Virus record (IMG/VR): IMGVR_UViG_3300012662_000005
Location: 1 to 34,879 of that record
Direction: 5' to 3' (one strand)
Source: a virus
Length of the DNA stretch: 34,879 nt
The notes under the pieces: generated by a model
Seen by the model: only the letters and a program-made list of their open reading frames with translations
The model's database searches: none
Told to the model about the DNA's origin: nothing
Position numbers and translations under genes: made by a program
Part shown: positions 5,409-21,653 of the stretch, in pieces
Layout: each line of letters opens with the position of its first letter
Numbering within the stretch: position 1 is the first letter of the stretch

Positions 5409-8400
5409 AATTTCTTACGGCCGCCACCCTTTTGATGAATTTCCCACCGAATTGACCGCCAAAGCCGAAACCCTTGGCGATTTGGTTCATGCTTGCGATA
5501 AAAATATCAAGCATGCGCTAGTTTTGGTTGGCGATGATTGCTTTAAGTATCCGCAATGCGCAGACGTCCCCGCTGATTGCCAAGAATGCCGCGTTTTGGC
5601 TGTGCCAGCGGGCAATAAAAAGATTTGGCGCAATATATGGCAGGGTGCGCTGGCGATTGCAGCGGCTGCGACCGCCCCTATTTGGGCCCCGTTTGCAACG
5701 GTTGTTGCAACCGCGCTGTATGCCTATGGTGCATTTAAGGTTTTGCAAGGCAGCATTCAACTGGCATATTATAAACCGCTGGGGCAGCAGGGCGCATATC
5801 AGGGGGGGTATTCCATCACTGGCGGCAGCAATTCGCAGGCGCAGGGCAACCCGATGCCGTTTATTTTGGGTAAATTCCGCGTTTATCCAAGCGTTGTGGG
5901 CAATTATTACACGACCCTTACAAACAATACTGGGCATGGGAAACAATTCGCCACGGCGGCGTTTTGCTTGGGGCAAAGCAACCTGAAAATCCAGAACATC
6001 AGAATCGGCAGCAACATTCTGTCTTACAATGAATCGGGCAACTACGGCAGCGTCACGATTGACGGCGCATTTGATGCGGCATGCGAACTGACAAACGGCA
6101 CGACCAGCACGATGTATAACGTCAAAATGTATGAACAGAATATCGGTGCAGAATGCGAACAGCAGACGATTCAATACGGGGAGAAATACAAAGCCCGCAT
6201 TGACTTTTTGAATGCGCAAAATGCCGCTTTGGAAAAACAGATAAAAGACCTTGATTTTTTAATTGCCGCGGCAGTCATGAATCATCATAATGCGCTGGCA
6301 GACAAATACAGAAAGCAGAAAGCCGACCTGCAAGCGCAGATTGCCGCCAACAATGCCGAAATTGCGGATTTGGAAAAAAAGCAGGACGAGGATGGAATCG
6401 TTGGAAACTACAAGAATACGCAGACAACCGCAGCAAACGCCGATGCTTTCACCGTGATTTTTGGTTTCCAAGGGCTGGGCCGCTATAATGACGAAAACAA
6501 AAAGAAAGAGGCAAGCCGCAACGTCTATATTATTTACCGCCCCGCTGAATCTGGCAAAGCATGGACGGTTGCATTGCACCGCGTATTTTCGGAGGCGCAG
6601 CCAGATAAAGCCCTGACGTATTACCAAACCGTCAATTTATCGGGCGAGGAAAAATCAGAAAATCCAAGCGGCAAATGGGAGGTCGCGGTTATCCCTATTG
6701 ATTCCGTCAGTAGCGAGGGCAATAAGGTCAACAAATTATACTGGCAGTCCCTGCAAACGCGCGTATCTGATGCAGTAATCCGCGTTCGCGAATTGCCAGA
6801 ATTGTCGCTGATGACCCTGCGCATTCAAGCCGATGCGAATACGCAAGGCAACCTGCAACAAATCAGCGCAGAATGCCAAAGCATCTGTCCAATTTGGAAC
6901 GGGGTTGATTGGAATACAAGCGAGCCAACCAGCAACCCTGCCGCGTTGTTCCGGTTTGTTTGCAGCAAGTTCTTCGAAAACGGATTTGACGAAAATTCAC
7001 TGGACAATGACGCAATCACCGAATTGTATGATTGGTGCTTGACCAATGATTATGAATGCAACGCAGCGATTGATTCGCAAGAACCCCTGATTGATATTTT
7101 GAATAAAATCCTGCAATGTGCGCAGGCGAAAGTGGTCATCAAAGGCGGCAAATTGAGCATTTGGCATGATACGGCGCAAGATAACCCCGTGGCATTACTC
7201 ACCCCGAAAAATTCAAGCGGATTTGAGGCGACAAAAGCCCTGAACAATAAAGTCAATGCGGTGCGGATTTCTTGGCACGATCCAGATGCGGACTACAAAG
7301 AAACGACAAGCGAGGTTTATTTGCATGGCGAATCAGCATCAGCCGATGACAATATTCAGGACGTGGAAATGTTCGGGCTGACCAATCATGACCAAGTATT
7401 CAGATTGGGGCGGTATCTGATTGCTTGCGTGCGCCTGCGCCCCGAAACATACAAACTGAAAGTTGGCATTGAACATTACAATTTGCCATTTGGCGCGCGC
7501 GTTTTGGTTGCATCTGATGTTCTGGCGGTATCAGATGCCTGCGGGCGCACAATCGGCACAGGAACGGACACGCTGGGCAAATATTGCGTTATTGACGAAA
7601 TAATCGCTGCGCAAACAAGCGTTGAAAATCCAAACACAAACCCTTACTATATGCGGGTGCAAAATGTGAATACGGGCGCACTGGAATTGCGCGAAATTTA
7701 CCGCCCCGCCGAGGCGACCAATCGCATCAGATTCAAAGATGAAAGTGCAGAAATACCGCCAATCGGGTCAATCTATGCGGTGGGCGAATTGGAGACGCTG
7801 GATTGCATTATTATTGGTAAAGAAATCGCAGACGATGACACTTGCCAACTGACGCTTGCCGCATACGATGAAAACATCTATAATGCGGTCAATGCTGAAA
7901 TTCCGCCTTACAATCCAAAAATTACGCAAGGGGAAAGCACCGCGGGCGGCATTACGTTTATCACTGACCCTGCTGTATCTGGCGAAAACGATTTTGTGAA
8001 TCAAAAGAATTTTGGGGGCGTATTCTTTGACTTTGGAATCTATTCAGTGCTTGGCGATGAATTTAAGAATCAGGGCACGCTTGGATCATTTGCGCAGCAG
8101 AAAGTAATCGGCACATTGCAGCCGCGCTGGAACGTCGACCGCGAAATTACCATCAACTGGTTGCATTTGACGTCCGCTCAATCGCTGGCATTCTATACTG
8201 ATAATCTGCTGTATAACAATCACACATTGTCATTTGCGCTGGCTAACGTATCGGGCGTGGGGCTGATTTGCAGATACGATGATACCGAAAACAATAACCG
8301 TTTGTATTTTGAAAAATTGGCTAACGGCAAAATGCATTTTGACTTTGACGACGTTGTGCATGAATTTGACTATGACTGGGATGGCGAACATCTGATAACA

Positions 8401-8880
8401 TTTACCCGCGACCCGATTTTGGGCGTTATGACCCTGTGGGTTGACCAGCATCAGATATTTTCGCAAAATTATTTGGATGTCCGCGATGTGCTGGAATCCG
8501 AAGACGAATCGGCAGTTTTGGAGGGCGAGGACGGCGATGATATTTTGACCAGCGAAAAGAGATACGTTGAACCTGTGGGTGGCGTGCGACGCGATGTTAA
8601 AATTGAATTTATGCTGGACGGCATCGTTGGCGACATTGCCACAATCCGCATTTGGAATTTGGGCTTTTACCAAGACGCGGTTAACAAATTGTATGAAAAC
8701 GATTCAATCGCATTTGGCATCAGCACATTGGCTGATTATCGCGGCGAATTTGAGGTTGAACCTGAAATTGTAAAACTTGGCGACACTTTCAAATATTTGG
8801 GCGAAACAACATCGCAATTCATTCAGAATGAAACATACTGGTTGACCGAGGGCGGCTGGGTGTTGTATAAAATAATTTAG
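5395..8880 (+). CDS. central tail fibre / host specificity protein (gpI-like N-terminus fused to a gpJ-like body, C-terminal LamG-like domain)
   Basis: 1161 aa from ATG 5395 (GAGGGA SD 5 nt upstream); the track start 5383 is a TTG. The N-terminal ~150 aa end in a VPAGNKK plus Ala-rich hydrophobic segment, as in lambda gpI. Large J-sized body. The C-terminus (LSFALANVSG...LYFEKLANGKMHFDF...LWVDQ) looks concanavalin/LamG-like. Confidence 0.75.
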   Translation: MKSIKISYGRHPFDEFPTELTAKAETLGDLVHACDKNIKHALVLVGDDCFKYPQCADVPADCQECRVLAVPAGNKKIWRNIWQGALAIAAAATAPIWAPFATVVATALYAYGAFKVLQGSIQLAYYKPLGQQGAYQGGYSITGGSNSQAQGNPMPFILGKFRVYPSVVGNYYTTLTNNTGHGKQFATAAFCLGQSNLKIQNIRIGSNILSYNESGNYGSVTIDGAFDAACELTNGTTSTMYNVKMYEQNIGAECEQQTIQYGEKYKARIDFLNAQNAALEKQIKDLDFLIAAAVMNHHNALADKYRKQKADLQAQIAANNAEIADLEKKQDEDGIVGNYKNTQTTAANADAFTVIFGFQGLGRYNDENKKKEASRNVYIIYRPAESGKAWTVALHRVFSEAQPDKALTYYQTVNLSGEEKSENPSGKWEVAVIPIDSVSSEGNKVNKLYWQSLQTRVSDAVIRVRELPELSLMTLRIQADANTQGNLQQISAECQSICPIWNGVDWNTSEPTSNPAALFRFVCSKFFENGFDENSLDNDAITELYDWCLTNDYECNAAIDSQEPLIDILNKILQCAQAKVVIKGGKLSIWHDTAQDNPVALLTPKNSSGFEATKALNNKVNAVRISWHDPDADYKETTSEVYLHGESASADDNIQDVEMFGLTNHDQVFRLGRYLIACVRLRPETYKLKVGIEHYNLPFGARVLVASDVLAVSDACGRTIGTGTDTLGKYCVIDEIIAAQTSVENPNTNPYYMRVQNVNTGALELREIYRPAEATNRIRFKDESAEIPPIGSIYAVGELETLDCIIIGKEIADDDTCQLTLAAYDENIYNAVNAEIPPYNPKITQGESTAGGITFITDPAVSGENDFVNQKNFGGVFFDFGIYSVLGDEFKNQGTLGSFAQQKVIGTLQPRWNVDREITINWLHLTSAQSLAFYTDNLLYNNHTLSFALANVSGVGLICRYDDTENNNRLYFEKLANGKMHFDFDDVVHEFDYDWDGEHLITFTRDPILGVMTLWVDQHQIFSQNYLDVRDVLESEDESAVLEGEDGDDILTSEKRYVEPVGGVRRDVKIEFMLDGIVGDIATIRIWNLGFYQDAVNKLYENDSIAFGISTLADYRGEFEVEPEIVKLGDTFKYLGETTSQFIQNETYWLTEGGWVLYKII

Positions 8881-8894
8881 AAAGGGGGCGGCGC

Positions 8895-10475
8895 ATGTCT
8901 TTTAATCCTGATAATTATGATTTGAAAAAACTGTCTGAATATCCAGCAAAGAATTTTAACCGCAGTTTATCGGAAAATGCTTTTTTCCCAGCAGTTGACC
9001 TTGATGAATTAGGTGCGTTGGCGAATTATAAAATTTCCCTGCAAGAATTGCTGGAATTTATCGTCCACACGGGCGATTACACAAACGTTATAGATTACCG
9101 CCCGACACCATATTACACCGCCACAGGGCTGAATTTAACAATAAAAGCGGGCTGGCGTATGGATTGCCCAAACGGCTTTGAATCAACAGGTGAGTATAAA
9201 AATAGCGAAATTCGGATTGATTCAGACCGTGCAATAGACATGTCGCAATATGGCAGCGGCATTTGGATCTTGTTCGTCACCGCATCTGATACGTTCGTTT
9301 TGCCGAAAGCACAGTTGATTACGCGCCCGAACCGCACAGTTGAAACATCGCCGCTGACGGGCACAATTTGCTATGAAACAGACACAAACACATGGTGGCG
9401 TTATGCTGGCACGGCTTGGAATCAAATCATCGGCATGCCGCTGATTAAAGCGAAAATCGCCGACAGCACTATGACCGTATCGCTGTCAAATTCATTGATG
9501 CGCAACCGCTTGAATTTGGAATACTTGCTGATTCAGGCAGGAATCAACATACCTGAAACGCGTGGGCCATTTGAACGCGTTATGTCCAACGTAAAAAAAT
9601 CGGGCGCGGATTTGCTGTATTACATACCAGCGCACACGCAGGTTGATTTGGCAAACTATCCCGACACGCTGGATTTCTTAAAAACCGCTTACGGGCGCGC
9701 TGCGGCGGCGGGCCCGATTGAAACATCAACCTATGGGGCTTTTTATCGCGACCCAGAAACGGGACTTGATTTTGCAACGCCGACCGTCTATTCGCGAGCG
9801 TATTCAAATACTGGCATTTGCCCATTCATTGGGATACCTGCCGATTCTGGATGGGCGGACGGCGCAACGCAGATTTGGACGCCTAAAACCTCGCACGGCG
9901 ATTTGATTATGAAAAAAGACCCGACAGATTCTGATATGAAATGGGCGCGGGTGTATGCGGACGGCTGGGTTGAACAAGGCGGATACGAAACAGCCCCAAC
10001 AAGTGTGTCAGAAGATAGTCGCCCCGTCACCCTAACGATTGAAATGGCTGACGCAAACTATCATGTTCAGCGCACACAGCATGGCGGAACTAGCAACACA
10101 ACGGCATTTTCATGGCAATGGATATCGGACAAACGAAACACATCAGCTGCAAATACCACATCAACATTGTATATCAGCATAGCAAACACCAGTTTTTGCC
10201 AAGGGGTATTCTGGGAGGTTCGCGGCAAGGCATCGGATGCCACGCTGGCAAAGATTCCAAACGCCGAAACTTTTAACGAATATTATCTGATAGGAAACGT
10301 GGTATCAAATATCCCTGCCGATTTGGCGGGTCAACTGGCAACAATTCTGAACGCCTATAATCAGATTGTCCAGCAGGGCGCGGACTTTTTCAGCGTCCAA
10401 GCAACCGATGCCACAGACGCGTTGGCGAAATCAATCGCCAACCCGACAAAATTCGTTTATGTCGCCGATCCATAA
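8895..10475 (+). CDS. tail fibre / receptor-binding protein candidate
   Basis: 526-aa ORF with SD AAGGGGG, directly downstream of the J-like gene. No recognisable catalytic motif. Confidence 0.45.
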   Translation: MSFNPDNYDLKKLSEYPAKNFNRSLSENAFFPAVDLDELGALANYKISLQELLEFIVHTGDYTNVIDYRPTPYYTATGLNLTIKAGWRMDCPNGFESTGEYKNSEIRIDSDRAIDMSQYGSGIWILFVTASDTFVLPKAQLITRPNRTVETSPLTGTICYETDTNTWWRYAGTAWNQIIGMPLIKAKIADSTMTVSLSNSLMRNRLNLEYLLIQAGINIPETRGPFERVMSNVKKSGADLLYYIPAHTQVDLANYPDTLDFLKTAYGRAAAAGPIETSTYGAFYRDPETGLDFATPTVYSRAYSNTGICPFIGIPADSGWADGATQIWTPKTSHGDLIMKKDPTDSDMKWARVYADGWVEQGGYETAPTSVSEDSRPVTLTIEMADANYHVQRTQHGGTSNTTAFSWQWISDKRNTSAANTTSTLYISIANTSFCQGVFWEVRGKASDATLAKIPNAETFNEYYLIGNVVSNIPADLAGQLATILNAYNQIVQQGADFFSVQATDATDALAKSIANPTKFVYVADP

Positions 10476-10485: not shown

Positions 10486-11421
10486 ATGAGCATTTACACT
10501 TTTAAGAAACGCTGGGCAGGCGGCGGACGGCTGAAAAAAAACGGTAAGACGGTGCGCGAAATTTGGACAAACGGACAGCGCATTTATACTGGATGGGACA
10601 AGCCCGCGGATTTGACCGAGGGCGCAACTGTGCTTGAAATTTCGGGCGCGAATAACGCCGTTTGGCAATGCGACCAATCTGGATTTTATCGGTTCTATTG
10701 CGCCAGCAGCGCAGGTGGAAATTCCACGAAAGCACAAGGCGGTGCAGGGGCTGTTATTCAATATGATTTGTGGATTGAACAAGGCGATTTGATTTATGCT
10801 TGGGCTGGATCAGGCGCAACATCTGGTGCGCTGGCTGAAACCAATCTGAAAGGCGGAACGGGGCAAGCAAATTATACTGGCAATCTGCCGTCTGATTATA
10901 ATTTCTGGCTTGGTGGCGGCGGGCGCAATGGCTATTCTGCCAATGATTCGGGGTCGGGTGGCGGCGGTGCTGGCGGTGCTGGCGGGCACGGCGCAAATGC
11001 AGCGGGCTATGGGGTTGATGGCGGTGCTGGCGCGGGCATTATCGTTTATAAAGACAGCGGCACGGAGGTATCAAAAGACACATTCGTTGAACACGGGCTT
11101 TATGCTGTTTTGTGCGCAGGCGGCGGCGGGGCTGGTTGCGATAACGGCACGCCAAGACGTGGCGGCGCATCGGGCGGGGCTGGATCTGCTGGCGGTGCTA
11201 ATGCACAGGGCGCAGGCGGCACAAACGAGGGATTTTTCACAGCCGATGGCTTGGTTGCGGGCACAAATGCGGACATGTCGGGCAACTACGGCATCACGGG
11301 CAAACCTGCGATTGGTAATTTGATAGAAAATGTCGGCGATGGCACGTTTAATGTTCTGACTAATCAAACGGGCAGTAATTCGTCCACAACGGGGCGGTGC
11401 TTTATCAAACGGTTGCTGTAA
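10486..11421 (+). CDS. glycine-rich tail fibre-associated protein
   Basis: 311 aa with long GGxGG/GAGG runs (GSGGGGAGGAGGHGANAAGYGVDGGAGAG) typical of phage glycine-rich fibre proteins. Last gene before a strong terminator. Confidence 0.6.
   Translation: MSIYTFKKRWAGGGRLKKNGKTVREIWTNGQRIYTGWDKPADLTEGATVLEISGANNAVWQCDQSGFYRFYCASSAGGNSTKAQGGAGAVIQYDLWIEQGDLIYAWAGSGATSGALAETNLKGGTGQANYTGNLPSDYNFWLGGGGRNGYSANDSGSGGGGAGGAGGHGANAAGYGVDGGAGAGIIVYKDSGTEVSKDTFVEHGLYAVLCAGGGGAGCDNGTPRRGGASGGAGSAGGANAQGAGGTNEGFFTADGLVAGTNADMSGNYGITGKPAIGNLIENVGDGTFNVLTNQTGSNSSTTGRCFIKRLL
10605..10636. repeat. left copy of a perfect 32-bp inverted repeat (partner 16313..16344)
   Basis: cgcggatttgaccgagggcgcaactgtgcttg is the exact reverse complement of 16313..16344. 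Flanking bases mismatch on both sides. Confidence 0.95.
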
Positions 11422-11446
11422 AGGTATTTGCCCGCAAAAATATTTT

Positions 11447-11470
11447 CGGGGCACAGTGCCCCGTTTTTTG
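11447..11470 (+). terminator. rho-independent terminator ending the tail operon
   Basis: cggggca-cag-tgccccg (7-bp GC-rich stem, 3-nt loop) followed by TTTTTT. Confidence 0.75.
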
Positions 11471-11483
11471 GCTTTTCCAGTTA

Positions 11484-11498
11484 TTTCCATTTTGGAAA
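11484..11498. promoter_or_regulatory. 15-bp palindrome TTTCCATTTTGGAAA (operator candidate, copy 1)
   Basis: 6-bp arms TTTCCA/TGGAAA around TTT. Identical copies at 11556..11570 and 30248..30262. Confidence 0.5.
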
Positions 11499-11520
11499 CA
11501 TGTCAGTTTTTAACGCATTT

Positions 11521-11549
11521 TTGCGATATGTTAAAAAAACAAATATTTT
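11521..11549 (+). promoter_or_regulatory. candidate early promoter (TTGCGA-N17-TATTTT)
   Basis: Sigma70-like hexamers between the two palindrome copies. Copy 2 would cover the predicted transcription start. Confidence 0.4.
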
Positions 11550-11555
11550 TAACAT

Positions 11556-11570
11556 TTTCCATTTTGGAAA
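11556..11570. promoter_or_regulatory. 15-bp palindrome TTTCCATTTTGGAAA (operator candidate, copy 2)
   Basis: Exact repeat of 11484..11498, 72 bp centre to centre. Confidence 0.5.
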
Positions 11571-11626
11571 TAGTTGCTTGCATTTTTATTTTTTTGCTGC
11601 ACAATACATGGCGAAAGGGGGAACAA

Positions 11627-12406
11627 ATGAAAGTTCAATTTACAGACCGTCAATATCAGTTGATTCAGACGTTGCCTGCGGCAGAACGGGGTGCAGTTCT
11701 TGCCGCTTTTTTTGATTTCAAATTTAATCAAGAAAATCAAGTTGCACTTGAAAAACTTGAAAAAAATCAACAAGCGGTTTTTCTGAAAATGCTTGCCAGA
11801 AACTGGGGCGGGGCGCGCGAAAAAAGCGGGCGCAAGCCGCGGAAATCTGGGAAAGTGCAAAAAAAGAACATTGCCGAAAATGAAAATCAAGATAATCAAG
11901 AAAATCAAGTTGCACTTGAAAAACTTGAAAAAAATCAGTCGCGCGTAGTGGATAATAATATATTAAATATAAATAATATAAATATATCCCCAGAAAAGAA
12001 AATAGAAAAACATACCCTTACGGGTATGCAAAAAGAAAAAGAAAAAAATCCGCGCACAAAATGGGATTTGGCGATGGCTGAATGGAATCGGATTGCGGGG
12101 CTTTATCGGCGGCCAAAAGTCCGCGCAATCACCCCGCAGATGCAAACCGCTATTCTTGCCAGATGCGCTGATAACAAAATCCGCATTGGGGAATTTTTTG
12201 CGATTTGCGAAAAAGCCCTGATGCGCGACCCTGCCTTGCGGAACGGCACGGACAAATGGGGCGGCGCAGATTTGATTTATTTCACGCGCCCTGCAAATTT
12301 CACGCGCGCATTGCAGGCCGCAGATAATCCAGACATGAAATTCAGCCGCGGGGACGAAACAGCCGCGGTGCTGGCGGATTTTATCAAAGGGGGCGACAAT
12401 GAGTAA
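11627..12406 (+). CDS. putative replication organiser/initiator (lambda O-like layout; DUF6291-like N-terminus)
   Basis: ATG 11627 is preceded by GGGGGAACAA; the track start 11456 lies in promoter/operator DNA. N-terminus FTDRQYQLIQTLPAAERGAVLAAFFDF. The low-complexity linker is encoded by iteron-like and AT-rich DNA. Function is inferred. Confidence 0.55.
   Translation: MKVQFTDRQYQLIQTLPAAERGAVLAAFFDFKFNQENQVALEKLEKNQQAVFLKMLARNWGGAREKSGRKPRKSGKVQKKNIAENENQDNQENQVALEKLEKNQSRVVDNNILNINNINISPEKKIEKHTLTGMQKEKEKNPRTKWDLAMAEWNRIAGLYRRPKVRAITPQMQTAILARCADNKIRIGEFFAICEKALMRDPALRNGTDKWGGADLIYFTRPANFTRALQAADNPDMKFSRGDETAAVLADFIKGGDNE
11726..11769 (+). repeat. 44-bp perfect direct repeat, copy 1 (iteron cluster)
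   Basis: aatcaagaaaatcaagttgcacttgaaaaacttgaaaaaaatca. Contains AATCAAG x2 and the palindrome CAAGTTGCACTTG. Confidence 0.95.
11894..11937 (+). repeat. 44-bp perfect direct repeat, copy 2 (iteron cluster)
   Basis: Identical to 11726..11769 and offset by 168 bp (in frame). An extra AATCAAG lies at 11885. Confidence 0.95.
11952..11987. other. 36-nt A/T-only tract (candidate DNA unwinding element)
   Basis: ataataatatattaaatataaataatataaatatat lies immediately after the second iteron cluster and inside the CDS. Confidence 0.5.
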
Positions 12407-13091
12407 ATTTATTCAGGGTGATTGTCTGCTGGCGATGCAGGATTTGCCAGACAAAAGCGTTGATTTATTGCTGACCGACCCGCCTTATCTATTCGCCAAG
12501 GGCGGTATGAAAAGCAAACTGAACGCAGGCGTGCGCGCTGCCGACAGCAAAGTTATCACGGAAATGTCGGATTTTGGCGAATCGGAAATCAACGCGTTTT
12601 TGGATTTAGCAAGCGCAAAATTAAAGCGCGCCAACATGTTCATATTCGCAAGCCGCCTGCAAGTGCCGATGTATCTGAATTGGGCAATAAAGCACCGCAA
12701 AAATTACGATATTTTGGTCTGGGACAAATGCAACGAGGGCATAATCAATTACGGGTTTTATAACCCCGCCGTGGAATATATCATCAGGATTTACCAAGAC
12801 GGGTTGTTCAAGGTTGACGATTTGGCGGCATACCAGAAAGTCCAGCGCATTCGCCCCCCCCGCAAAAAGGTTCATCCAGCGCAAAAGCCCGTGGAATTGC
12901 TGCAACGCCTGATAAAGGTATCAACGCGCGCAGGGGACACAATTCTTGATTGCTTTGCGGGGGCTGGATCAACCGCCGTTGCTGCCGAATCGCTGGGGCG
13001 TCAATTTATTGCGATTGAACGCGACCCAAAATTCGCAGAAATCGCGCAAAAGCGGATTGCTGACGCGCGCACATGGGGCGCAGATGAATAA
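12399..13091 (+). CDS. DNA methyltransferase, beta-class N6A/N4C (MTase 1)
   Basis: DPPY motif (LLLTDPPYLF) at the N-terminus, then HPAQKP and the SAM-binding motif ILDCFAGAGST toward the C-terminus. SD GGGGGCGACA. Confidence 0.85.
   Translation: MSKFIQGDCLLAMQDLPDKSVDLLLTDPPYLFAKGGMKSKLNAGVRAADSKVITEMSDFGESEINAFLDLASAKLKRANMFIFASRLQVPMYLNWAIKHRKNYDILVWDKCNEGIINYGFYNPAVEYIIRIYQDGLFKVDDLAAYQKVQRIRPPRKKVHPAQKPVELLQRLIKVSTRAGDTILDCFAGAGSTAVAAESLGRQFIAIERDPKFAEIAQKRIADARTWGADE
12854..12861. repeat. C8 homopolymer inside MTase 1
   Basis: cgc ccc ccc cgc encoding RPPR, upstream of the SAM-binding motif. Confidence 0.95.
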
Positions 13092-13096
13092 ATTGG

Positions 13097-13124
13097 TTGC
13101 AATTTGCAAAAACAATGATATTTT
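13097..13124 (+). promoter_or_regulatory. candidate promoter TTGCAA-N16-TATTTT
   Basis: Hexamers in the 70-bp gap upstream of 13162. Same -35 hexamer and spacing as the four conserved cassettes. Confidence 0.35.
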
Positions 13125-13161
13125 TAACGAGAGCGCAAAACTTTAACGAAAGGGGGAACAA

Positions 13162-13710
13162 ATGATAACAAAAACTGAATGGGCTGCTGCTGTCTTGTAT
13201 TGCAAATCGCTTGCGGGCTTGCGCGATGCGCCAAGCAAAGAATACTTGGAGGCATTGTATGGCGAAATCAAGGGGCTATTCACAAAAGCGGAAATTGAAC
13301 AGGCGGCGCGGCAAATTGCCGTGAACGAGGATTTGTTCGGGCAATTCCCGCCAATCAAACTGTGGCTGCAATATTGCCCAGCGTATCAGCAATCGCAAGC
13401 ATCGGCATATTCTGACCGCGCTGGCTTTATGGATCTGTTGCAGGAATGGGCGACATGCGACCAATTCACATTTAAGGTCATTGAATCCGATTTGACAAAA
13501 GAAATCGCCCGCGCAGGCGGCGACCTTGGCAAAAAAGCCCTTGCGTGCGCTGGCTATTCGCTTGCGGGCTTGCGTCTATATGGGAAAAGTGAACCCGCAC
13601 TTTGCGGGGCATTGCGGGCAATATCGGCGCAATGGGACAGATTGGCGAAAAAGATTTCTGATAAAATTTTAATTGATGCGAAAAAAGTTGTTGCAATCCC
13701 CGAAAAATAA
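13162..13710 (+). CDS. hypothetical protein
   Basis: 182-aa ORF with an exact GGGGGAACAAATG start context. The 3' end encodes KKVVA from the embedded promoter sequence. Confidence 0.7.
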   Translation: MITKTEWAAAVLYCKSLAGLRDAPSKEYLEALYGEIKGLFTKAEIEQAARQIAVNEDLFGQFPPIKLWLQYCPAYQQSQASAYSDRAGFMDLLQEWATCDQFTFKVIESDLTKEIARAGGDLGKKALACAGYSLAGLRLYGKSEPALCGALRAISAQWDRLAKKISDKILIDAKKVVAIPEK

Positions 13711-13718
13711 TTTATAAT
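13691..13718 (+). promoter_or_regulatory. conserved early promoter cassette P1 (TTGCAA-N16-TATAAT)
   Basis: aaaaaagttgTTGCAA...tTATAATtaaaacacagataaa...ctgggggaacaaATG. Near-identical to the copy at 18638. Confidence 0.6.
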
Positions 13719-13751
13719 TAAAACACAGATAAATAAAAACTGGGGGAACAA

Positions 13752-13985
13752 ATGATTACGAAATCTGAACAAATCCGCACAGCCCTGCTTGCTGGCGAGG
13801 GCAAGAAAGCGATTTCAATCGCCGCGAAATTCTGGGACAAAAGCCCCAGAACCGAGGCGTGCAAATTGGCGCAATCGGCGATTTTATCGCCCGCATTCAT
13901 GCGCCAACTGGGGAAAGACCCAGATAAACTGATTGCAGACGCAATCACAGTTTTATCACAAGAATTTGTAGGGGGAACAAAATGA
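13752..13985 (+). CDS. hypothetical protein
   Basis: 77-aa ORF with an exact GGGGGAACAAATG context and an ATGA overlap with the next gene. Confidence 0.7.
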   Translation: MITKSEQIRTALLAGEGKKAISIAAKFWDKSPRTEACKLAQSAILSPAFMRQLGKDPDKLIADAITVLSQEFVGGTK

Positions 13986-14320
13986 ACGAATCAGTAAAAT
14001 CAATCGCGGATTGGCATGCCAAAACATTTCCAGATGCAACCCTTGCGGGACAAAACGACAAATTCATTGCTGAAATGCGTGAATGGGAGGCAAGCGGCAA
14101 GGGCGATGTGCTGGAACTTGCAGATATGTTCATTGTCGCGGCGGGCATGTCAAGGTTTTCAACAATGGCCGCGATGCTGGCGTTTGGTGTTGTTTTTGCC
14201 GAACGTAAAAATCATTTCAGCAAACACGACCTGCAAATGGCGATTGACCGCAAGATGAAAATCAACCGCGCCCGCAAATGGGATTTTGCAGATGGCAAAT
14301 ATCAACACAAGGGGGAATAA
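13982..14320 (+). CDS. MazG-like nucleotide pyrophosphohydrolase (candidate)
   Basis: 112 aa, all-alpha, with an acidic EMREWE...LELADMFIV pattern resembling MazG/NTP-PPase metal-binding helices. Confidence 0.5.
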   Translation: MNESVKSIADWHAKTFPDATLAGQNDKFIAEMREWEASGKGDVLELADMFIVAAGMSRFSTMAAMLAFGVVFAERKNHFSKHDLQMAIDRKMKINRARKWDFADGKYQHKGE

Positions 14321-14321
14321 G

Positions 14322-14477
14322 ATGCCGCAAAATTTTGAAATCTTGCCCTGCCCGTATTGCAAAAAGCGGCAGATATTCAGAATGGTGCGCCAGAATGTTT
14401 TGCGCTGCGCCAGATGCGGGCAATACTTATCTTTTCCAACACACATTGAATTTAAGGGGGCTGCAAATGACAACTGA
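14322..14477 (+). CDS. small zinc-ribbon protein
   Basis: 51 aa from ATG 14322 (GGGGGAATAAG upstream). CPYC...CARC pairs. Confidence 0.6.
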   Translation: MPQNFEILPCPYCKKRQIFRMVRQNVLRCARCGQYLSFPTHIEFKGAANDN

Positions 14478-14946
14478 TGAAATTGAACGCAATAAAAGTT
14501 TAGTCGGCTGCGTATGCCGTTTATGGAACGATTCCAAAGATAAAGCCGAAATCTTGATTTTGGAAAAATATTGCCACGCGCGCCTGCGCCCGTTTGGGGC
14601 GATGGGCTATTGGTGGGCGAATTGCGAAATTGTCCCAGACGATGAATTACAACAATCGCCATATCACCCTTACAGCGCACCGCAATTCTTGACATATGGC
14701 GAAATTATAGAACTGCAAGGGCTGCTGTCGTTTGCGCTGGCCCGCTGGGGCGATTCGCTGAACGAATGGGGCGCGCACTGCTTGAATAAGGCAAAAGCCG
14801 AATTGTCGCGCTTGCAATGCGCCGCGCCGCATGATGTCTTTGCGGGCGATTTCGTGGGCATGATAACGCCATGCCATTTTGCCAATCATTGCGATGCAAC
14901 CGCGCCCACGCGCCTGATTCCAACAAAGCAAGGGGGCTATAAATGA
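14467..14946 (+). CDS. hypothetical protein
   Basis: 159 aa from ATG 14467 (GGGGGCTGCAA upstream). The longer track ORF (14278) overlaps two other genes. Confidence 0.65.
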   Translation: MTTDEIERNKSLVGCVCRLWNDSKDKAEILILEKYCHARLRPFGAMGYWWANCEIVPDDELQQSPYHPYSAPQFLTYGEIIELQGLLSFALARWGDSLNEWGAHCLNKAKAELSRLQCAAPHDVFAGDFVGMITPCHFANHCDATAPTRLIPTKQGGYK

Positions 14947-15116
14947 TTTCAGACGACCAACTGATGGTAAAGGTTGAATTTCTTGTCCCCGCATCGGTAA
15001 TGTCCGATGATGCGGTGCGCGATGTGCTGTATGACCAAATTGGGGCTTTCAACCTTTACGCGTTAAAAATTAAAAAAACAACCGTTAAACAAGAAATGCA
15101 AGCATGGAGGAAATGA
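14943..15116 (+). CDS. hypothetical small protein (57 aa; below the track cutoff)
   Basis: ATG 14943 after GGGGGCTATAA. ATGA overlap upstream; stop overlaps the start of the HD gene. Confidence 0.5.
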   Translation: MISDDQLMVKVEFLVPASVMSDDAVRDVLYDQIGAFNLYALKIKKTTVKQEMQAWRK

Positions 15117-15751
15117 TGGGCGTATTTGATTATGTTCGCAGGGAACAGCCAGCGGCGCAGCCGCAGGCGCAACAGAATACCGAATCGGGGGCTGATGTAT
15201 TCAGCCGCGAATTGGTGCTGATAGACAATGCCGATTTGCGGGAGGCGGTTCAGTGTGCGCTGGAACATGCGCCGTCTTATTTTTGGGAAATGCCAGCGTC
15301 CAGCACGGGCAAATATCACCCCGCCTATACATTGGGCGCGGGCGGCCTTGTGCGCCATACCAAGGCGGCGGTGCGGATTGCTGACGCGCTGTTGCGCCTT
15401 GAAATGTATGCGCCCCTTGCTGCGCGCAAAGACGAAATAATCGCCGCCCTGATTCTGCATGATAGCGTTAAAAAGGGTGCATCTGGCGGGCAATACACAA
15501 CGATTGAACACCCGCTGGCAGCCGCGGATCATTTCCAGCGCATCGCGCAGGGGCTGGAATACAGGGGCGACATTGAATTTATTTGCGGGCTAATCCGCGC
15601 GCACATGGGGCAATGGAACAAAGATTTTGACGGGAACGATGTCCTGCCAAAACCGATTACGCCGCATCAACAATTTGTTCATTTGTGCGATTATTTGGCA
15701 TCGCGAAAATTTATCACGATAACGGAGGATTCAGGCGCACCCCTGAAATAA
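15113..15751 (+). CDS. HD-domain metal-dependent phosphohydrolase
   Basis: GGAGG SD then ATG 15113/15116. Motifs SSTGKYHP, GGLVRHT, ALILHDSVKK and CDYLASR are typical of phage HD hydrolases. Confidence 0.7.
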   Translation: MMGVFDYVRREQPAAQPQAQQNTESGADVFSRELVLIDNADLREAVQCALEHAPSYFWEMPASSTGKYHPAYTLGAGGLVRHTKAAVRIADALLRLEMYAPLAARKDEIIAALILHDSVKKGASGGQYTTIEHPLAAADHFQRIAQGLEYRGDIEFICGLIRAHMGQWNKDFDGNDVLPKPITPHQQFVHLCDYLASRKFITITEDSGAPLK

Positions 15752-15757
15752 CCGCAG

Positions 15758-15790
15758 AAATCAGGCAAAAACACCGCCTGATTTTTTTTG
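15758..15790 (+). terminator. rho-independent terminator
   Basis: aaatcaggc-aaaaacacc-gcctgattt (9-bp stem) followed by a T run. Confidence 0.75.
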
Positions 15791-15810
15791 CAATTTTTTT
15801 AATTTTTTTC

Positions 15811-15839
15811 TTGCAATCGGTTTTGTTTTAATTTATAAT
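15811..15839 (+). promoter_or_regulatory. conserved early promoter cassette P2 (TTGCAA-N17-TATAAT)
   Basis: aatttttttcTTGCAAtcgg...aattTATAATtaaatcataga. Near-identical to the minus-strand copy at 29468..29495. Confidence 0.6.
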
Positions 15840-15882
15840 TAAATCATAGATAAAAGAACAAAACCAAATGGGGGAACAAAAA

Positions 15883-16185
15883 ATGACATTAAACGAATTT
15901 GCAGAAATGGTGCAAGGCAAGGTTTGGATTAAAGGCGACAAGATTCGTATTTATTTCCAATCTGATAAGACCGCAAAAGCATATCTGGATTATGACGAGG
16001 ATTTGGGCGACAAATTTGAAACGGGAATTGAGGGTGCGAATCTGCGCGTATTCAGCGATTGCCAGTCGCAAAGCCGCCTTTGGAATGTAAATCGTGCAAA
16101 GCAAATCAAGTTTGAAATCATGCAGCGCATCGCCGCCATCACTGGGGACGAAATCTGCGACAAATGGGAGGACGTAATATTATGA
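15883..16185 (+). CDS. hypothetical protein
   Basis: 100 aa from ATG 15883 (GGGGGAACAAAAA upstream). The track start 15868 lies inside the SD. Confidence 0.7.
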   Translation: MTLNEFAEMVQGKVWIKGDKIRIYFQSDKTAKAYLDYDEDLGDKFETGIEGANLRVFSDCQSQSRLWNVNRAKQIKFEIMQRIAAITGDEICDKWEDVIL

Positions 16186-16373
16186 GAACAATAATCGCAT
16201 TGATTGCCATTGCTGGGGGCGTAATTGCCCCAGCGCAGGCGAAAGATTGCTGCCGCTGCAATGCTTGCCAGTGCCAAAGATACGAACCATCGTATAGCCG
16301 TTATTCCAGCGACAAGCACAGTTGCGCCCTCGGTCAAATCCGCGCCTATAATTACCGCCACGGGCTGAATTAA
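16182..16373 (+). CDS. small secreted cysteine-rich peptide
   Basis: 63 aa, ATGA-coupled. Signal peptide MRTIIALIAIAGGVIAPAQA|KD. The mature part begins KDCCRCNACQCQ. Contains the right copy of the 32-bp inverted repeat. Confidence 0.6.
   Translation: MRTIIALIAIAGGVIAPAQAKDCCRCNACQCQRYEPSYSRYSSDKHSCALGQIRAYNYRHGLN
16313..16344. repeat. right copy of the perfect 32-bp inverted repeat (partner 10605..10636)
   Basis: caagcacagttgcgccctcggtcaaatccgcg is the reverse complement of 10605..10636. Confidence 0.95.
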
Positions 16374-16391
16374 ATAGCAAGGGGGGAACAA

Positions 16392-16766
16392 ATGAAAGTG
16401 CGCTATATACTTTTTGACGATGTCCTGCGCAGCGATATAACAGCCCTGCATGACCGCGAAAAGCAAGCCGCGTTTTTGGACAAGCGGGGGATTGAATATC
16501 GGCATTTTGAACTGGTCACGCGCTACACCTATGATGATACCCGCCACGAAAAATATCATTGCGGCCATATCATGATGTACAACTGGGATTTTTGCCCCTA
16601 TTGCGGCGATGAAATAACATCAGGGTTCAGCGTGGCGGACGACAGCATTTCGGCGATAAAAGAATATTTCGCGAAACGCTGCGGGCGACCGATGCGCGCG
16701 GAGGAGGATGCAAAGATTACAAGTTCGGTTTGGATTAAAGTATGGGGGACTGACGATGCTAAATAA
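16392..16766 (+). CDS. hypothetical protein with a CxxC/HCGH zinc-binding candidate
   Basis: 124 aa with an exact GGGGGAACAAATG context. HCGH...CPYCGDE. Confidence 0.7.
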   Translation: MKVRYILFDDVLRSDITALHDREKQAAFLDKRGIEYRHFELVTRYTYDDTRHEKYHCGHIMMYNWDFCPYCGDEITSGFSVADDSISAIKEYFAKRCGRPMRAEEDAKITSSVWIKVWGTDDAK

Positions 16767-17169
16767 ATCGCTTGCAGATTGCGCCGCAATCATCATGACC
16801 GATGGCGACATCGTAAGTTATCATAGCCCGCTGGCAATCATCATTTATGATTATTATGCGCTGGTCAACGGCATTGAACGCCCCGCGGCGAAAGCCCGCA
16901 AGCAACGGGCGGTTGTGTCTGCGCTGGGGAAAGACCCGCGATTTGAGGTGGTATTCATGGCGGGCTGTAATCGTCCGAATTTTGTAATAAAAGGTTGCAA
17001 TGCAAAAAATTTAATCTATAATCAAAGCATGCAAGCATTGCATTTCTGGGTCTTGCCCTATGGGCGAGAATCTGCCGAGGCGTTTGTCGGACTTTGGGCC
17101 AGCGTATGCGAATCAAACCGACTTTTATTTGGGGGCGGCATAATTCCTACATTCTTTTTCTTTTTTTAA
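16756..17169 (+). CDS. hypothetical protein
   Basis: 137 aa from ATG 16756 (GGGGGACTGACG upstream), overlapping the previous stop. Ends in a poly-Phe tail encoded by a T-rich run. Confidence 0.55.
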   Translation: MLNKSLADCAAIIMTDGDIVSYHSPLAIIIYDYYALVNGIERPAAKARKQRAVVSALGKDPRFEVVFMAGCNRPNFVIKGCNAKNLIYNQSMQALHFWVLPYGRESAEAFVGLWASVCESNRLLFGGGIIPTFFFFF

Positions 17170-18411: not shown

Positions 18412-18657
18412 ATGGCTGAAAAGAAAAAAGGCGGACAATATCAGGGCTATGCGACCAATATCAGATTAAAAGATTGGGCGGTGGTGCTGTGCAAAACGGA
18501 TTACGCGGAGGAGGCGAACCCGAAAATTTTGGAAAAGATTATCGGCGATTCGCTGGAATTATATTTCAGGGTGAAAGGGTGCGCGCCCGATGTGCAAACA
18601 AAAATTGCGCTGGCAATCGCCGCCGATAAAAAAGTTGTTGCAAATTATAAAAAATAA
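18412..18657 (+). CDS. hypothetical protein
   Basis: 81-aa ORF with a GGAGG SD. The 3' end encodes KKVVA from the embedded promoter P3. Confidence 0.65.
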   Translation: MAEKKKGGQYQGYATNIRLKDWAVVLCKTDYAEEANPKILEKIIGDSLELYFRVKGCAPDVQTKIALAIAADKKVVANYKK

Positions 18658-18665
18658 CTTATAAT
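18638..18665 (+). promoter_or_regulatory. conserved early promoter cassette P3 (TTGCAA-N16-TATAAT)
   Basis: aaaaaagttgTTGCAA...tTATAATtaaagcacagagaaa...ctgggggaacaaATG. Confidence 0.6.
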
Positions 18666-18701
18666 TAAAGCACAGAGAAACAAAAAAAACTGGGGGAACA
18701 A

Positions 18702-19367
18702 ATGAAAGCAATAACTGATAACGCGCGGGAAATCTGGGCCGCCTTGCAGAATTTGCAAGACGAGGTCGCGCCCGTTGCAAAAGACGCGAACAACCCACAT
18801 TTTGCCAGCAAATATGCAACGCTGGAAAAGGTTATAGAATCGCTGCGCGAACCTTGCAAGAAAAGCAAGGTTGCGTATCAGCAATGGGCTGATGGTCTGG
18901 AAATCCACACAAGGGTATTCATGACAACCGATCCAACTGATTACATTGAACAGGTTTTGGAAATGGTGCTTGATGCCAATCCGCAGCGCATGGGGTCAGC
19001 GATAACATATTACCGCCGCTATTCGCTGGGATTGATATTCAACCTGCGATTTGCTGATGATGATGGCAATGCCGCCGCTGGATTGCCAGAAAGGGCGCAA
19101 AATCGCCCGCAGGTGCGCGATAATGCCCCGCGCCAAGCAACCAGCGCGCCAAAGCAACAAAATGCGCCTGCGCGCGTAAAAAAGGTGATGGGCGAATTTA
19201 ATTTCAAGCAGATGATCCAAGAATTGAAATCATGCAAGCGCAGCGCGGACATGAATCCGATTGCGAAAAAATGGGCAAACGCCTTTGATATGACGCCCGC
19301 CCAGAAAGACGCAGCGACAGATGCATACAAGCACCGCTTTAATTATTTGAAACAAATAAACCGATAA
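18702..19367 (+). CDS. erf: ERF-family single-strand annealing recombinase
   Basis: 221 aa. NPHFASKYATLEKV and GSAITYYRRYSLGLIFNLRFADDDGN match the P22 Erf core (GATSSYARKYCLNGLFGIDD). Confidence 0.8.
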   Translation: MKAITDNAREIWAALQNLQDEVAPVAKDANNPHFASKYATLEKVIESLREPCKKSKVAYQQWADGLEIHTRVFMTTDPTDYIEQVLEMVLDANPQRMGSAITYYRRYSLGLIFNLRFADDDGNAAAGLPERAQNRPQVRDNAPRQATSAPKQQNAPARVKKVMGEFNFKQMIQELKSCKRSADMNPIAKKWANAFDMTPAQKDAATDAYKHRFNYLKQINR

Positions 19368-19377: not shown

Positions 19378-19635
19378 ATGGCAACAATGGCAAACTTTTC
19401 ATTTACAAAATCCGATTGCTACACATTATGCGACATCATAGAGTTCATTTTGGGCGATGAATTGATGGTGCAGCGATTCTGCGCAGATAATGCCCACACG
19501 CCCGCGGGCGTCCGCAAGCAACTGATGCGGTGGTATAAAGCCGCCGACAGGGCATGCGCTGTCAATCAGCATTTTGCTGAAACAGCGCAAGAACAGGACG
19601 TGCTGGCGGCGCGGATCATAATAAAGCAGGATTGA
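19378..19635 (+). CDS. hypothetical protein
   Basis: 85-aa ORF with GGGGGGGACA upstream. Confidence 0.65.
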   Translation: MATMANFSFTKSDCYTLCDIIEFILGDELMVQRFCADNAHTPAGVRKQLMRWYKAADRACAVNQHFAETAQEQDVLAARIIIKQD

Positions 19636-19643
19636 AATAGACC

Positions 19644-19760
19644 ATGGGGGTGAAAGGCACGTGGCTGAGTAAAAGGTGTAAATCTTGTCGCGGCAAGTAT
19701 CAGCCAGAACGTTTGCGCTGGCATTTTTTGACGCAAACAAATAAAGGAGCAAAAAAATGA
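19644..19760 (+). CDS. possible 38-aa CxxC mini-protein
   Basis: ATG 19644. The stop overlaps the next start (ATGA). No SD, so weak. Confidence 0.25.
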   Translation: MGVKGTWLSKRCKSCRGKYQPERLRWHFLTQTNKGAKK

Positions 19761-21026: not shown

Positions 21027-21241
21027 TTGCGCTGGTGGAATCACTGGATTACCCCGCAACTATTATCATCGCACAATGCGATTCAGACCGCCCAGCAATG
21101 GCGTTTGAATGCTTGGGGATTTCGCGGGCGGGCTGGCCAAATACAATTTGCGCGCGGCGATGCTTTCATGCAAAACTGGGCTCGCCTGTGGCTTTGAAAA
21201 AACAAAAAGGGGAAAATAATGAAAAAAGAAACAGCATTTGA
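21023..21241 (+). CDS. doubtful ORF (TTG start, 72 aa)
   Basis: Only ORF covering the 190-nt gap after MTase 2. No SD, and it overlaps both neighbours. Confidence 0.25.
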   Translation: MIALVESLDYPATIIIAQCDSDRPAMAFECLGISRAGWPNTICARRCFHAKLGSPVALKKQKGENNEKRNSI

Positions 21242-21434
21242 TATTTACCGCGATGCGTTCCAGTTTTGGGAAAAAGCCAGTTGGTTCAGCGTTGCAGCGC
21301 AATTCATAACACTTGTGCTTGGATTTTATAAACTGTGGTATGTGGCATTGGCAATTTGGGCGGTCTGCACCGTGATGTGCGTGCGCTATATTATCTTGCT
21401 GATGCGTGAAATTCGCAAAGGGGGCAAGCAATGA
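21219..21434 (+). CDS. small membrane protein (2 predicted TM helices)
   Basis: 71 aa with SD AAAGGGGA. Hydrophobic stretches WFSVAAQFITLVLGFY and VALAIWAVCTVMCVRYIILL. Confidence 0.65.
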   Translation: MKKETAFDIYRDAFQFWEKASWFSVAAQFITLVLGFYKLWYVALAIWAVCTVMCVRYIILLMREIRKGGKQ

Positions 21435-21574: not shown

Positions 21575-21577
21575 TGC

Positions 21578-21607: not shown

Positions 21608-21653
21608 CTGAAACGGAAAGCAACGATTTTTTCATTGACTTTTCTCTCTTGGT

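What the first reader, a model, noticed from the sequence alone, without database searches (positions are those of the whole stretch)
10605..16344. Perfect 32-bp inverted repeat linking the glycine-rich tail-fibre gene to an early secreted-peptide gene 5.7 kb away
Seen in sequence: 10605..10636 (cgcggatttgaccgagggcgcaactgtgcttg, encoding ADLTEGATVL near the N-terminus of the fibre protein) is the exact reverse complement of 16313..16344 (encoding DKHSCALGQIR in the Cys-rich peptide). Flanking bases differ on both sides. A chance 32-mer match in 35 kb is negligible. Both genes are transcribed from the + strand, so their mRNAs are perfectly complementary over 32 nt. Inference: (a) RNA-RNA pairing between an early and a late transcript, giving temporal control or RNase III processing of fibre mRNA; (b) a substrate for recombinational inversion of the 5.7-kb segment; (c) a recombination scar. 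32 nt is also a typical CRISPR spacer length, but no CRISPR repeat flanks either copy.
Basis: partly seen in the sequence, partly recalled or inferred. Interest (0 to 1): 0.65.

Follow-up and report, generated by a model that had tools for sequence, protein, structure and literature searches.

The report
Mutation scar copied from tail gene
The perfect 32-base inverted repeat is real, but it is a recent one-off copying error: 21 bases of a small phage peptide gene were overwritten with an inverted copy of a tail-gene sequence 5.7 kb away, so it is not a conserved regulatory or switching device.

Summary
10605-10636 is the exact reverse complement of 16313-16344, with none expected by chance.

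Comparison with relatives shows what it is. The copy in the Gly-rich tail-module gene is identical in every relative, from about 90% to 100% nucleotide identity. The copy in the small secreted-peptide gene (16182-16373) occurs only in contigs 100.000% identical to the window.

The 99%-identical genome NODE_139 has no difference from the window across 4.8 kb (11991-16840) other than 12 positions inside 16318-16338. It and four more distant relatives carry a different allele, DKRSAIQKVRAYNY. That C-terminal motif is also conserved in a distant homologue (L019).

So the repeat is derived. One event replaced 18 nt with a 21-nt inverted copy of 10611-10631, bracketed by pre-existing 5-nt and 6-nt microhomologies. 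This is the signature of microhomology-mediated template switching (templated inverted insertion).

There is no invertase, reverse transcriptase, CRISPR repeat or spacer match. No analogous repeat exists in three relatives examined.

Antisense pairing of the two + strand mRNAs (computed -67.6 kcal/mol) and rare inversion are possible side effects, not evolved functions.

The parts
10486..11421 (+). Gly-rich 311-aa gene at the end of the tail module (putative fibre or tail-tip protein; function unverified). It holds the donor copy.
   Evidence: It follows the gpJ-like gene 5383-8880 (phrog_31) and gene 8895-10475. It has no family hit of its own. Homologues are P0001 (96%) and P0002 (57%).
10605..10636 (+). 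Donor arm of the 32-nt inverted repeat (codons A41-L50). It is identical in every relative that was read.
   Evidence: exact in L003, L008, L009, L010 and L014.
10611..10631 (+). The 21 nt actually copied (in reverse complement) into the small ORF.
   Evidence: Derived, as the complement of 16318-16338.
11447..11463 (+). Terminator-like hairpin plus T-run just after the Gly-rich gene, consistent with the end of the late/structural transcription unit.
   Evidence: 7-bp stem, 6 GC pairs, TTTTTT. This is a consensus scan only.
15811..15839 (+). Promoter-like site (TTGCAA-17-TATAAT) of the repeated early-type cassette, upstream of the operon that holds the small ORF.
   Evidence: (D10). This is a consensus scan only.
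15883..16185 (+). 100-aa gene immediately upstream. Its stop overlaps the small ORF start (ATGA).
16182..16373 (+). Small secreted-type peptide gene (63 aa; signal peptide ...APAQA|KD, Cys-rich). It is the recipient of the patch.
   Evidence: Among the ancestral-allele copies there are 5 synonymous and 0 non-synonymous differences. There is a homologue in L019.
16313..16344 (-). Derived arm of the 32-nt inverted repeat.
   Evidence: It is present only in contigs 100% identical to the window.
16318..16338 (.). Converted tract: 21 nt that replace the ancestral 18 nt GCAGCGCGATTCAGAAAG (KRSAIQKV to KHSCALGQI).
16313..16317 (.). Left 5-nt microhomology (CAAGC), already present in the ancestral allele.
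16339..16344 (.). Right 6-nt microhomology (TCCGCG), already present in the closest ancestral allele (NODE_139).
18702..19367 (+). Erf-like single-strand annealing protein. It is the phage's own recombination function and a possible helper of the event.
   Evidence: PF04404; phrog_2324, 1.9e-31. Its involvement is inference only.

Best explanation
The repeat is the footprint of one recent complex mutation in one phage lineage.

Shown: the ancestral small-peptide gene read ...GACAAGC-GCAGCGCGATTCAGAAAG-TCCGCGCC. In the window's lineage those 18 nt are replaced by 21 nt that are the exact reverse complement of 10611-10631 in the Gly-rich tail gene.

Inferred mechanism: during replication or break repair a growing DNA end ending in CAAGC left its template. 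It re-annealed by 5 nt of microhomology to GCTTG at 10632-10636, either on another genome copy or on its own upstream nascent strand. It copied 21 nt in the inverted direction. It then returned through the 6-nt microhomology TCCGCG/CGCGGA. This is template switching, also called a microhomology-mediated templated inverted insertion.

The 21 new nucleotides plus the 5 and 6 pre-existing ones make the 32-nt perfect inverted repeat. The patch happens to be in frame (+1 codon, no stop), so the peptide gene stays open. However, its most conserved motif is rewritten.

The repeat therefore has no evolved function. Complementarity between the two + strand mRNAs, and low-frequency homologous inversion that would break both genes, are at most by-products.
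For: 1. Polarity. The fibre copy is exact in all relatives: L003, L008, L009, L010 and L014. The small-ORF copy is found only in L004/L009, L012 and L007/L013. All of these are 100.000% identical to the window over every fetched stretch, up to 20 kb.

2. The alternative allele (protein P0003) is in NODE_139 (99% nucleotide identity), SRR29834460, NODE_1060 (about 95%), ERR10750265 and SRR19415684 (about 94.6%). Its motif YSRYSSDKRxAIxKVRAYNYRHG is kept in the distant homologue of L019, whose neighbouring gene is 64% identical.

3. Single event. Between 11991 and 16840 the window and NODE_139 differ only at 12 positions within 16318-16338.

4. Of 21 clusters of differences between the two genomes, only this one has an ectopic match, of 32 nt. 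The other clusters match 10-13 nt, and 298 of 300 random sites match 18 nt or less.

5. The microhomologies CAAGC and TCCGCG flank the tract in the ancestral allele. Only one other site in the genome has both, at a different spacing.

6. The ancestral 29-mer is otherwise not unusually similar to the donor site, which is not among the top 40 local alignments. No pre-existing functional pairing needs to be assumed.

7. No comparable repeat links the fibre gene and the early region in L002, L014 or L019.

8. The signature matches published descriptions. Template switches convert sequence into perfect inverted repeats, and the donor need not be close in linear sequence (PMC7954356). Short inverted templated insertions are flanked by microhomology (PMC8421209; PMC11724301).
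Against: The donor lies 5.7 kb away. Most catalogued template-switch mutations and MMB-TIs have donors within about 100 bp, although those searches were limited to that range.

The mechanism is inferred from the sequence signature alone. No intermediate, polymerase or recombinase was tested.

The three other assemblies carrying the repeat are 100% identical and may be re-assemblies of one sequencing run, so the derived allele may rest on a single library.

The in-frame, stop-free outcome and the persistence of the allele would also fit some selective value, which cannot be excluded.
Confidence: 0.85

Rival explanations
1. A newly born but already useful trans-antisense pair. The operon transcript from the 15811 promoter carries 32 nt perfectly complementary to the fibre mRNA. 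The duplex (possibly an RNase III substrate) would tune fibre expression or timing, and the allele would be kept by selection.
For: Both genes are on the + strand, in separate predicted transcription units. The computed duplex is -67.6 kcal/mol, against -31.5 for the ancestral allele. The patch is in frame and stop-free.
Against: It is absent from the 99% relative and from all more distant ones, while the fibre arm is unchanged. There is no analogous pairing in L002, L014 or L019. It destroys the conserved peptide motif. It is seen only in one clone, 100% identical. There is no Rfam family match and no expression data.
Confidence: 0.07
2. A programmed invertible segment, like the Mu G or P1 C segments. 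The inverted repeats would be crossover sites for a DNA invertase that flips 5.7 kb to switch tail-fibre variants.
For: The arm length (32 nt) resembles the 26-34-nt sites of Gin/Cin/Hin systems (from memory). One arm lies inside a tail-module gene.
Against: No serine or tyrosine recombinase was found in any Pfam scan or precomputed gene table. All genes between the arms are + strand early-type genes (methylase, HD-domain protein and others), not alternative fibre ends. After inversion, fibre residues 1-50 would be fused to the antisense of real genes (192-aa minus-strand ORF). The second arm is missing in the nearest relatives. The SPAdes and MEGAHIT contigs share one orientation.
Confidence: 0.02
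3. A sequencing-library or assembly artefact, for example inverted chimeras from amplification fixed into the consensus.
For: All repeat-bearing contigs are 100% identical and could come from one library. Inverted chimeras are a known amplification artefact (from memory).
Against: Three assemblers with different k values (55, 119, 31) agree. The Logan k=31 contig ends behave as expected for a true repeat of at least 31 nt. A clean 21-nt replacement that returns in frame to the original template, at about 16x consensus coverage, is not what random chimeric reads give.
Confidence: 0.04
4. A CRISPR-related element: a spacer-sized sequence captured by the phage, or a protospacer duplicated or replaced to evade host immunity.
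For: Its length of 32 nt equals a common spacer length.
Against: No direct repeats flank either copy. Neither the 32-mer nor the ancestral core occurs in 185,579 species genomes, JGI metagenomes or IMG/VR. The net change is a replacement (+3 nt), not an insertion with repeat duplication. No cas genes were found.
Confidence: 0.01

Closest known systems
Template-switch mutations (the quasipalindrome / 'four-point' model of Ripley and of Loytynoja & Goldman; PMC7954356, PMC8794818, PMC7202029)
   Same: A cluster of substitutions plus a small indel is explained by one event. That event copies the reverse complement of another sequence and creates a perfect inverted repeat. The switch and the return occur at short identities.
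   Different: The donor is 5.7 kb away rather than within the same hairpin or fork neighbourhood. The ancestral sequence was not a notable quasi-palindrome of the donor; only 5-nt and 6-nt microhomologies were present. It is observed in a natural phage population, not a reporter assay.
Microhomology-mediated templated insertions (MMB-TI / MMBIR; PMC8421209, PMC2621351) and distant templated inverted insertions at breaks (PMC11724301)
   Same: A short (at least 10 bp) inverted copy of a template, flanked by microhomology, replaces local sequence. Distant donors are documented in yeast.
   Different: Those systems are eukaryotic and tied to BIR or end-joining enzymes. Here the enzymes are unknown. 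The phage has an Erf-type annealing protein, and no break was demonstrated.
Phage invertible tail-fibre segments (Mu G/Gin, P1 C/Cin) and shufflons
   Same: Short inverted repeats, one of them inside a tail-module gene.
   Different: There is no invertase and no alternative fibre exons. The second arm is absent in near-identical relatives. Inversion would be destructive.
Phage antisense RNA controls (lambda OOP, P22 sar, P1 c4, P4 CI; from memory)
   Same: Complementarity between two phage transcripts could, in principle, affect expression.
   Different: Those elements are conserved dedicated RNAs with defined structure and targets. This is a 32-nt tract inside a coding sequence, confined to one clone, with no RNA family match.

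Membership tests
Template-switch / templated inverted insertion mutation | The derived sequence is an exact reverse-complement copy of another sequence in the same genome. | tested here: met
   32/32 complementary. 21 of these nucleotides are new relative to the ancestral allele.
Template-switch / templated inverted insertion mutation | The ancestral state lacks the copy, and the change appears as one mutation cluster in otherwise identical sequence. | tested here: met
   the only differences in 11991-16840 against NODE_139 are 12 positions in 16318-16338. The ancestral allele is found in 5 other lineages and in a distant homologue.
Template-switch / templated inverted insertion mutation | Microhomology at both switch points. 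| tested here: met
   CAAGC (5 nt) and TCCGCG (6 nt) are shared by the ancestral allele and the donor complement.
Template-switch / templated inverted insertion mutation | The donor is unchanged (copying, not reciprocal exchange). | tested here: met
   The fibre gene 32-mer is identical in genomes with and without the patch.
Template-switch / templated inverted insertion mutation | The donor is close to the insertion (within about 100 bp, or within the same fork), as in the catalogued short-range class. | tested here: not met
   The donor is 5,676 nt away. The literature states that proximity in linear sequence is not required, but the short-range catalogues do not cover this case.
Template-switch / templated inverted insertion mutation | Arises by polymerase strand switching during replication or repair. 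| not testable with these tools
   The mechanism is inferred from the signature only.
Invertase-driven invertible segment (Gin/Cin/Hin, shufflon) | A site-specific recombinase gene is next to or within the element. | tested here: not met
   No recombinase, resolvase or integrase Pfam hit or in the precomputed tables.
Invertase-driven invertible segment (Gin/Cin/Hin, shufflon) | The opposite-strand reading frame at the far arm gives an alternative C-terminus for the tail gene. | tested here: not met
   the minus-strand frame behind the far arm is antisense to two real + strand genes. It has no fibre-like sequence.
Invertase-driven invertible segment (Gin/Cin/Hin, shufflon) | Both arms are conserved in relatives, and both orientations are seen. 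| tested here: not met
   The far arm is absent in NODE_139, L006, L014, L015 and L016. Both read-through assemblies have the same orientation.
CRISPR array, mini-array or spacer | A spacer-sized unit flanked by direct repeats, or a match to a host array. | tested here: not met
   One search shows no flanking repeats. Searches found no match in genome contigs. Searches found none in viral or metagenome contigs.
Conserved trans-antisense regulatory RNA pair | Complementarity is conserved or co-varies among relatives. | tested here: not met
Conserved trans-antisense regulatory RNA pair | The two RNAs pair in vivo and this alters expression. | not testable with these tools
   Only the in-silico duplex energy is available.
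Diversity-generating retroelement | A reverse transcriptase plus a direct TR/VR pair differing at adenines. | tested here: not met
   No reverse transcriptase hit. The repeat is inverted and 100% identical.

The most novel reading that the evidence does not exclude
The event caught here could be the birth of a trans-acting antisense interaction. One template-switch mutation would have instantly created 32 nt of perfect complementarity between an early-operon transcript and the last gene of the late operon. The clone carrying it would persist because the new duplex (or the rewritten secreted peptide) is advantageous. That would be a natural example of how phage antisense regulators originate de novo from templated mutations.
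Probability: 0.06. Interest if true: 0.7.

Novelty: new member of a known kind. Interest (0 to 1): 0.25.

Why it matters
As a regulatory or switching device it does not hold up, so it should not be carried forward as a new phage control element.

Its modest value is as a very clean natural example of a long-range (5.7 kb) microhomology-mediated templated mutation in a phage. Both the ancestral and the derived alleles are available in otherwise identical sequence. It shows that perfect spacer-sized inverted repeats can arise in a single step, that such events can rewrite conserved coding motifs while staying in frame, and that scans should check relatives before inferring function.

It also warns that short-range template-switch catalogues (donor within about 100 bp) miss events of this type.

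Tried and rejected
1. Covariation. The reverse complement of the NODE_139 allele reads in the fibre frame as ADFLNRAAL. I therefore tested whether that genome's own fibre gene carries a matching sequence. It does not; its fibre 32-mer is identical to the window's.

2. Exact and degenerate searches for the 32-mer, the ancestral core and the conserved flanks all found nothing. I searched IMG/VR, GTDB species genomes and JGI metagenomes, and megablast against GenBank phages. No host, spacer or extra variants emerged.

3. The search for related loci in viral contigs with the fibre protein and the 124-aa protein returned no relatives.

4. A pre-existing quasi-palindrome. The ancestral 29-mer is not among the 40 best local matches to the donor region (the earlier semi-global scan was badly configured and is discarded). 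The event was therefore microhomology-guided, not driven by near-repeat homogenisation.

5. Other templated clusters. None of the 20 other difference clusters against NODE_139 has an ectopic template.

6. Rfam, tRNA, Pfam and PHROG scans gave no family for the fibre-like protein, the peptide or the region.

7. A literature look-up of the sample accessions gave nothing useful. Whether the three identical assemblies are independent samples remains unknown.
Full report
OBSERVATION

The repeat is real. 10605-10636 (+) and 16313-16344 are perfectly complementary over 32 nt, with unrelated flanks. Even allowing 3 mismatches there are only these two matches, against none in 100 shuffles. No other perfect inverted repeat in the window exceeds 18 nt.

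CONTEXT

The window is a circularly assembled phage genome of siphovirus-like layout; 1-80 equals 34800-34879. I infer a unique length of 34,799 bp.

- Almost all genes lie on the + strand.
- The first arm lies in codons 41-50 of a 311-aa Gly-rich protein (10486-11421). This gene closes the tail module, after a gpJ-like protein (5383-8880; phrog_31, 6e-60) and a 526-aa protein.
- The Gly-rich protein has no family hit of its own, so 'tail fibre' is a positional guess.
- A strong terminator-like hairpin follows at 11447-11463.
- The second arm lies in a small ORF that most likely starts at ATG 16182. This start has a GGGAGGA ribosome-binding site, and ATGA overlaps the stop of the upstream 100-aa gene. 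The ORF ends at 16373 and gives 63 aa with a signal-peptide-like N-terminus and a Cys-rich body.
- The small ORF sits in an operon behind one of several repeated TTGCAA-N16/17-TATAAT cassettes, at 15811-15839.

RELATIVES

Public phage records and IMG/VR hold nothing close. Exact-protein look-ups recovered a set of relatives. BLAST against the window sorts them as follows.

- ERZ27300210 k119_129235, ERZ808263 NODE_81 and two Logan contigs of SRR1747036 are 100.000% identical to the window over every fetched stretch (up to 20 kb).
- ERZ26859185 NODE_139 and SRR29834460_4935 are about 99% identical.
- ERZ15610143 NODE_1060 and ERR10750265_54725 are about 95% identical. The SRR19415684 contigs are about 90-95% identical.
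- L001/L002 and L017-L019 are distant (fibre 57% amino-acid identity; the 100-aa neighbour 64-70%).

KEY RESULT

The fibre arm is exact in every relative down to about 90% identity: L003, L008, L009, L010 and L014. The small-ORF arm exists only in the contigs that are 100% identical to the window.

NODE_139 and SRR29834460 are identical to the window for hundreds of bases on both sides. Inside the 32-mer, however, they read CAAGCGCA---GCGCGATTCAGAAAGTCCGCG.

A full alignment shows that between 11991 and 16840 the window and NODE_139 differ only at 12 positions, all within 16318-16338. I tested whether NODE_139's own fibre gene matches its own small-ORF variant, which would be covariation. It does not; its fibre gene carries the same 32-mer as the window.

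POLARITY

- The non-repeat allele encodes P0003 (62 aa...DKRSAIQKVRAYNYRHGLN). It occurs in five lineages spanning 94.6-99% identity.
- Among those copies the ORF shows five synonymous and no non-synonymous differences. This argues that it is a real gene under purifying selection.
- A distant homologue in L019 (50% identical peptide) keeps YSRYSSDKRPAIEKVRAYNYRHG.
- The P0003-type sequence is therefore ancestral. The window's KHSCALGQI is a derived overwrite of the best-conserved motif.
- The fibre segment aligns with its 57% homologue in the same place (KPADLTEGATVL against KPASPIVAETVL). The fibre copy is native and is the donor.

ANATOMY OF THE EVENT

- 18 ancestral nucleotides (GCAGCGCGATTCAGAAAG) were replaced by 21 nt (16318-16338). 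These are the reverse complement of 10611-10631.
- The flanking CAAGC (16313-16317) and TCCGCG (16339-16344) were already present. They match the donor's flanks, and this extends the identity to 32 nt.
- Only one other place in the genome has both microhomologies within 12-30 nt, at a different spacing.
- Apart from these ends, the ancestral 29-mer was not unusually similar to the donor site, which is not in the top 40 local alignments genome-wide.
- Of 21 clusters of differences between the window and NODE_139, only this one has an ectopic template. It matches 32 nt, against 10-13 nt for the other clusters. The background was 18 nt or less at 298 of 300 random sites; the other two hit this repeat and the 45-nt direct repeat.

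MECHANISM (INFERRED)

This is the signature of a template-switch, or microhomology-mediated templated inverted insertion. A nascent 3' end dissociates. It pairs by a few bases with another template, which may be another genome copy in the replicating pool or its own upstream nascent strand. It copies a short stretch in inverted orientation and then returns by a second microhomology.

The literature describes exactly this outcome:
- Conversion into perfect inverted repeats, with no requirement for linear proximity (PMC7954356).
- Inverted templated insertions of at least 10 bp flanked by microhomology, catalogued within 100 bp (PMC8421209).
- Distant templated and inverted insertions at breaks (PMC11724301).

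The phage's Erf-like annealing protein (18702-19367) might assist. However, 5-6 nt of flanking homology is, from general knowledge of recombineering, too short for classical annealing-mediated patch transfer. I therefore favour polymerase switching.

RIVALS

1. Evolved antisense control. The duplex would be very stable: -67.6 kcal/mol, against -31.5 for the ancestral allele. A side effect or newly gained function therefore cannot be excluded (about 6-7%).
2. Invertible segment. There is no recombinase gene and no alternative fibre exon on the opposite strand. The orientation is the same in the SPAdes and MEGAHIT contigs.
3. Artefact. Three assemblers agree. In the Logan k=31 assembly, contig _2763 ends at 16342 and the 29,119-nt contig _805 starts at 16315. 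By arithmetic, (34799-16315+1)+10634 = 29119, so _805 should end inside the fibre copy, as expected of a true repeat of at least 31 nt. That far end was not fetched. By contrast, the SRR19415684 fibre contig runs through the 32-mer unbroken, and that sample carries the ancestral allele.
4. CRISPR. There are no flanking repeats. Neither the 32-mer nor the ancestral core matches anything in 185,579 species genomes or in the metagenome and viral collections.

CAVEATS

- The repeat-bearing assemblies are identical and may come from one run, so the allele may be documented in only one sample.
- No expression or read-level data were available.
- The host is unknown.

VERDICT

The feature is a new instance of a known mutational process, unusual mainly for the 5.7-kb donor distance and for the clarity of its ancestral and derived alleles. 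Interest is low to moderate (0.25).

Noticed in passing
window 1-80 and 34800-34879: An exact 80-bp terminal direct repeat, which is a circular-assembly overlap. The unique length of 34,799 bp equals NODE_81 (34854-55) and k119_129235 (34918-119), so these are probably the same genome.
   Followed up: partly
window 13681-13769, 15811-15885, 18628-18719 (+); 29427-29500 (-): A repeated promoter/leader/ribosome-binding-site cassette (TTGCAA-N16/17-TATAAT ... GGGGGAACAAATG) heads several early-type operons. An inverted copy drives the only minus-strand unit. That unit holds two small genes, 29436-29209 (75 aa, transmembrane segment plus Cys) and 29221-28967 (84 aa).
   Followed up: partly
window 11725-11769 and 11893-11937: An exact 45-nt direct repeat, 168 nt apart, lies inside gene 11621-12406 and encodes NQENQVALEKLEKNQ twice. 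By contig-length arithmetic, Logan contig SRR1747036_2763 appears to break here too.
   Followed up: no
window 12399-13091, 20376-21026, 22046-23461: Three N6/N4 DNA methyltransferase genes occur in one 35-kb phage. The first two share 70-76% identical nucleotide stretches (repeats D7, D17), which suggests paralogy.
   Followed up: no
window 31019-31036: A 17/18-nt match to the fibre arm (GCTGATTTGACCGAGGGC) lies in the scaffolding-protein gene. It encodes the same peptide, ADLTEG, within KLADLTEGKY. This is probably coincidence of peptide and codon usage.
   Followed up: partly
window 19634-19742 and 21028-23415: Against the otherwise 99%-identical NODE_139, these stretches are strongly divergent (78 differing columns; 83% identity). 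This indicates mosaic module exchange around the third methylase.
   Followed up: no
L004 9575-9782, L012 3033-3240 versus L006 4218-4406: The gene calls stored for the public contigs skip the small ORF in repeat-bearing contigs. They call it (62 aa) in ancestral-allele contigs, so the derived peptide is absent from the protein database.
   Followed up: no
window 29578-30441: Two small membrane-type ORFs (72 and 96 aa) plus a 129-aa ORF with a lipobox-like LAGC look like a lysis cassette (holin/spanin-like). They sit between the head-morphogenesis and scaffold genes.
   Followed up: no
window 10880-10895: The fibre-like gene contains TGCCGTCTGAT, one base off the Neisseria DNA-uptake sequence GCCGTCTGAA (recalled from memory). 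This is a weak hint that the host may belong to the Neisseriaceae. The host was not identified by any search.
   Followed up: no
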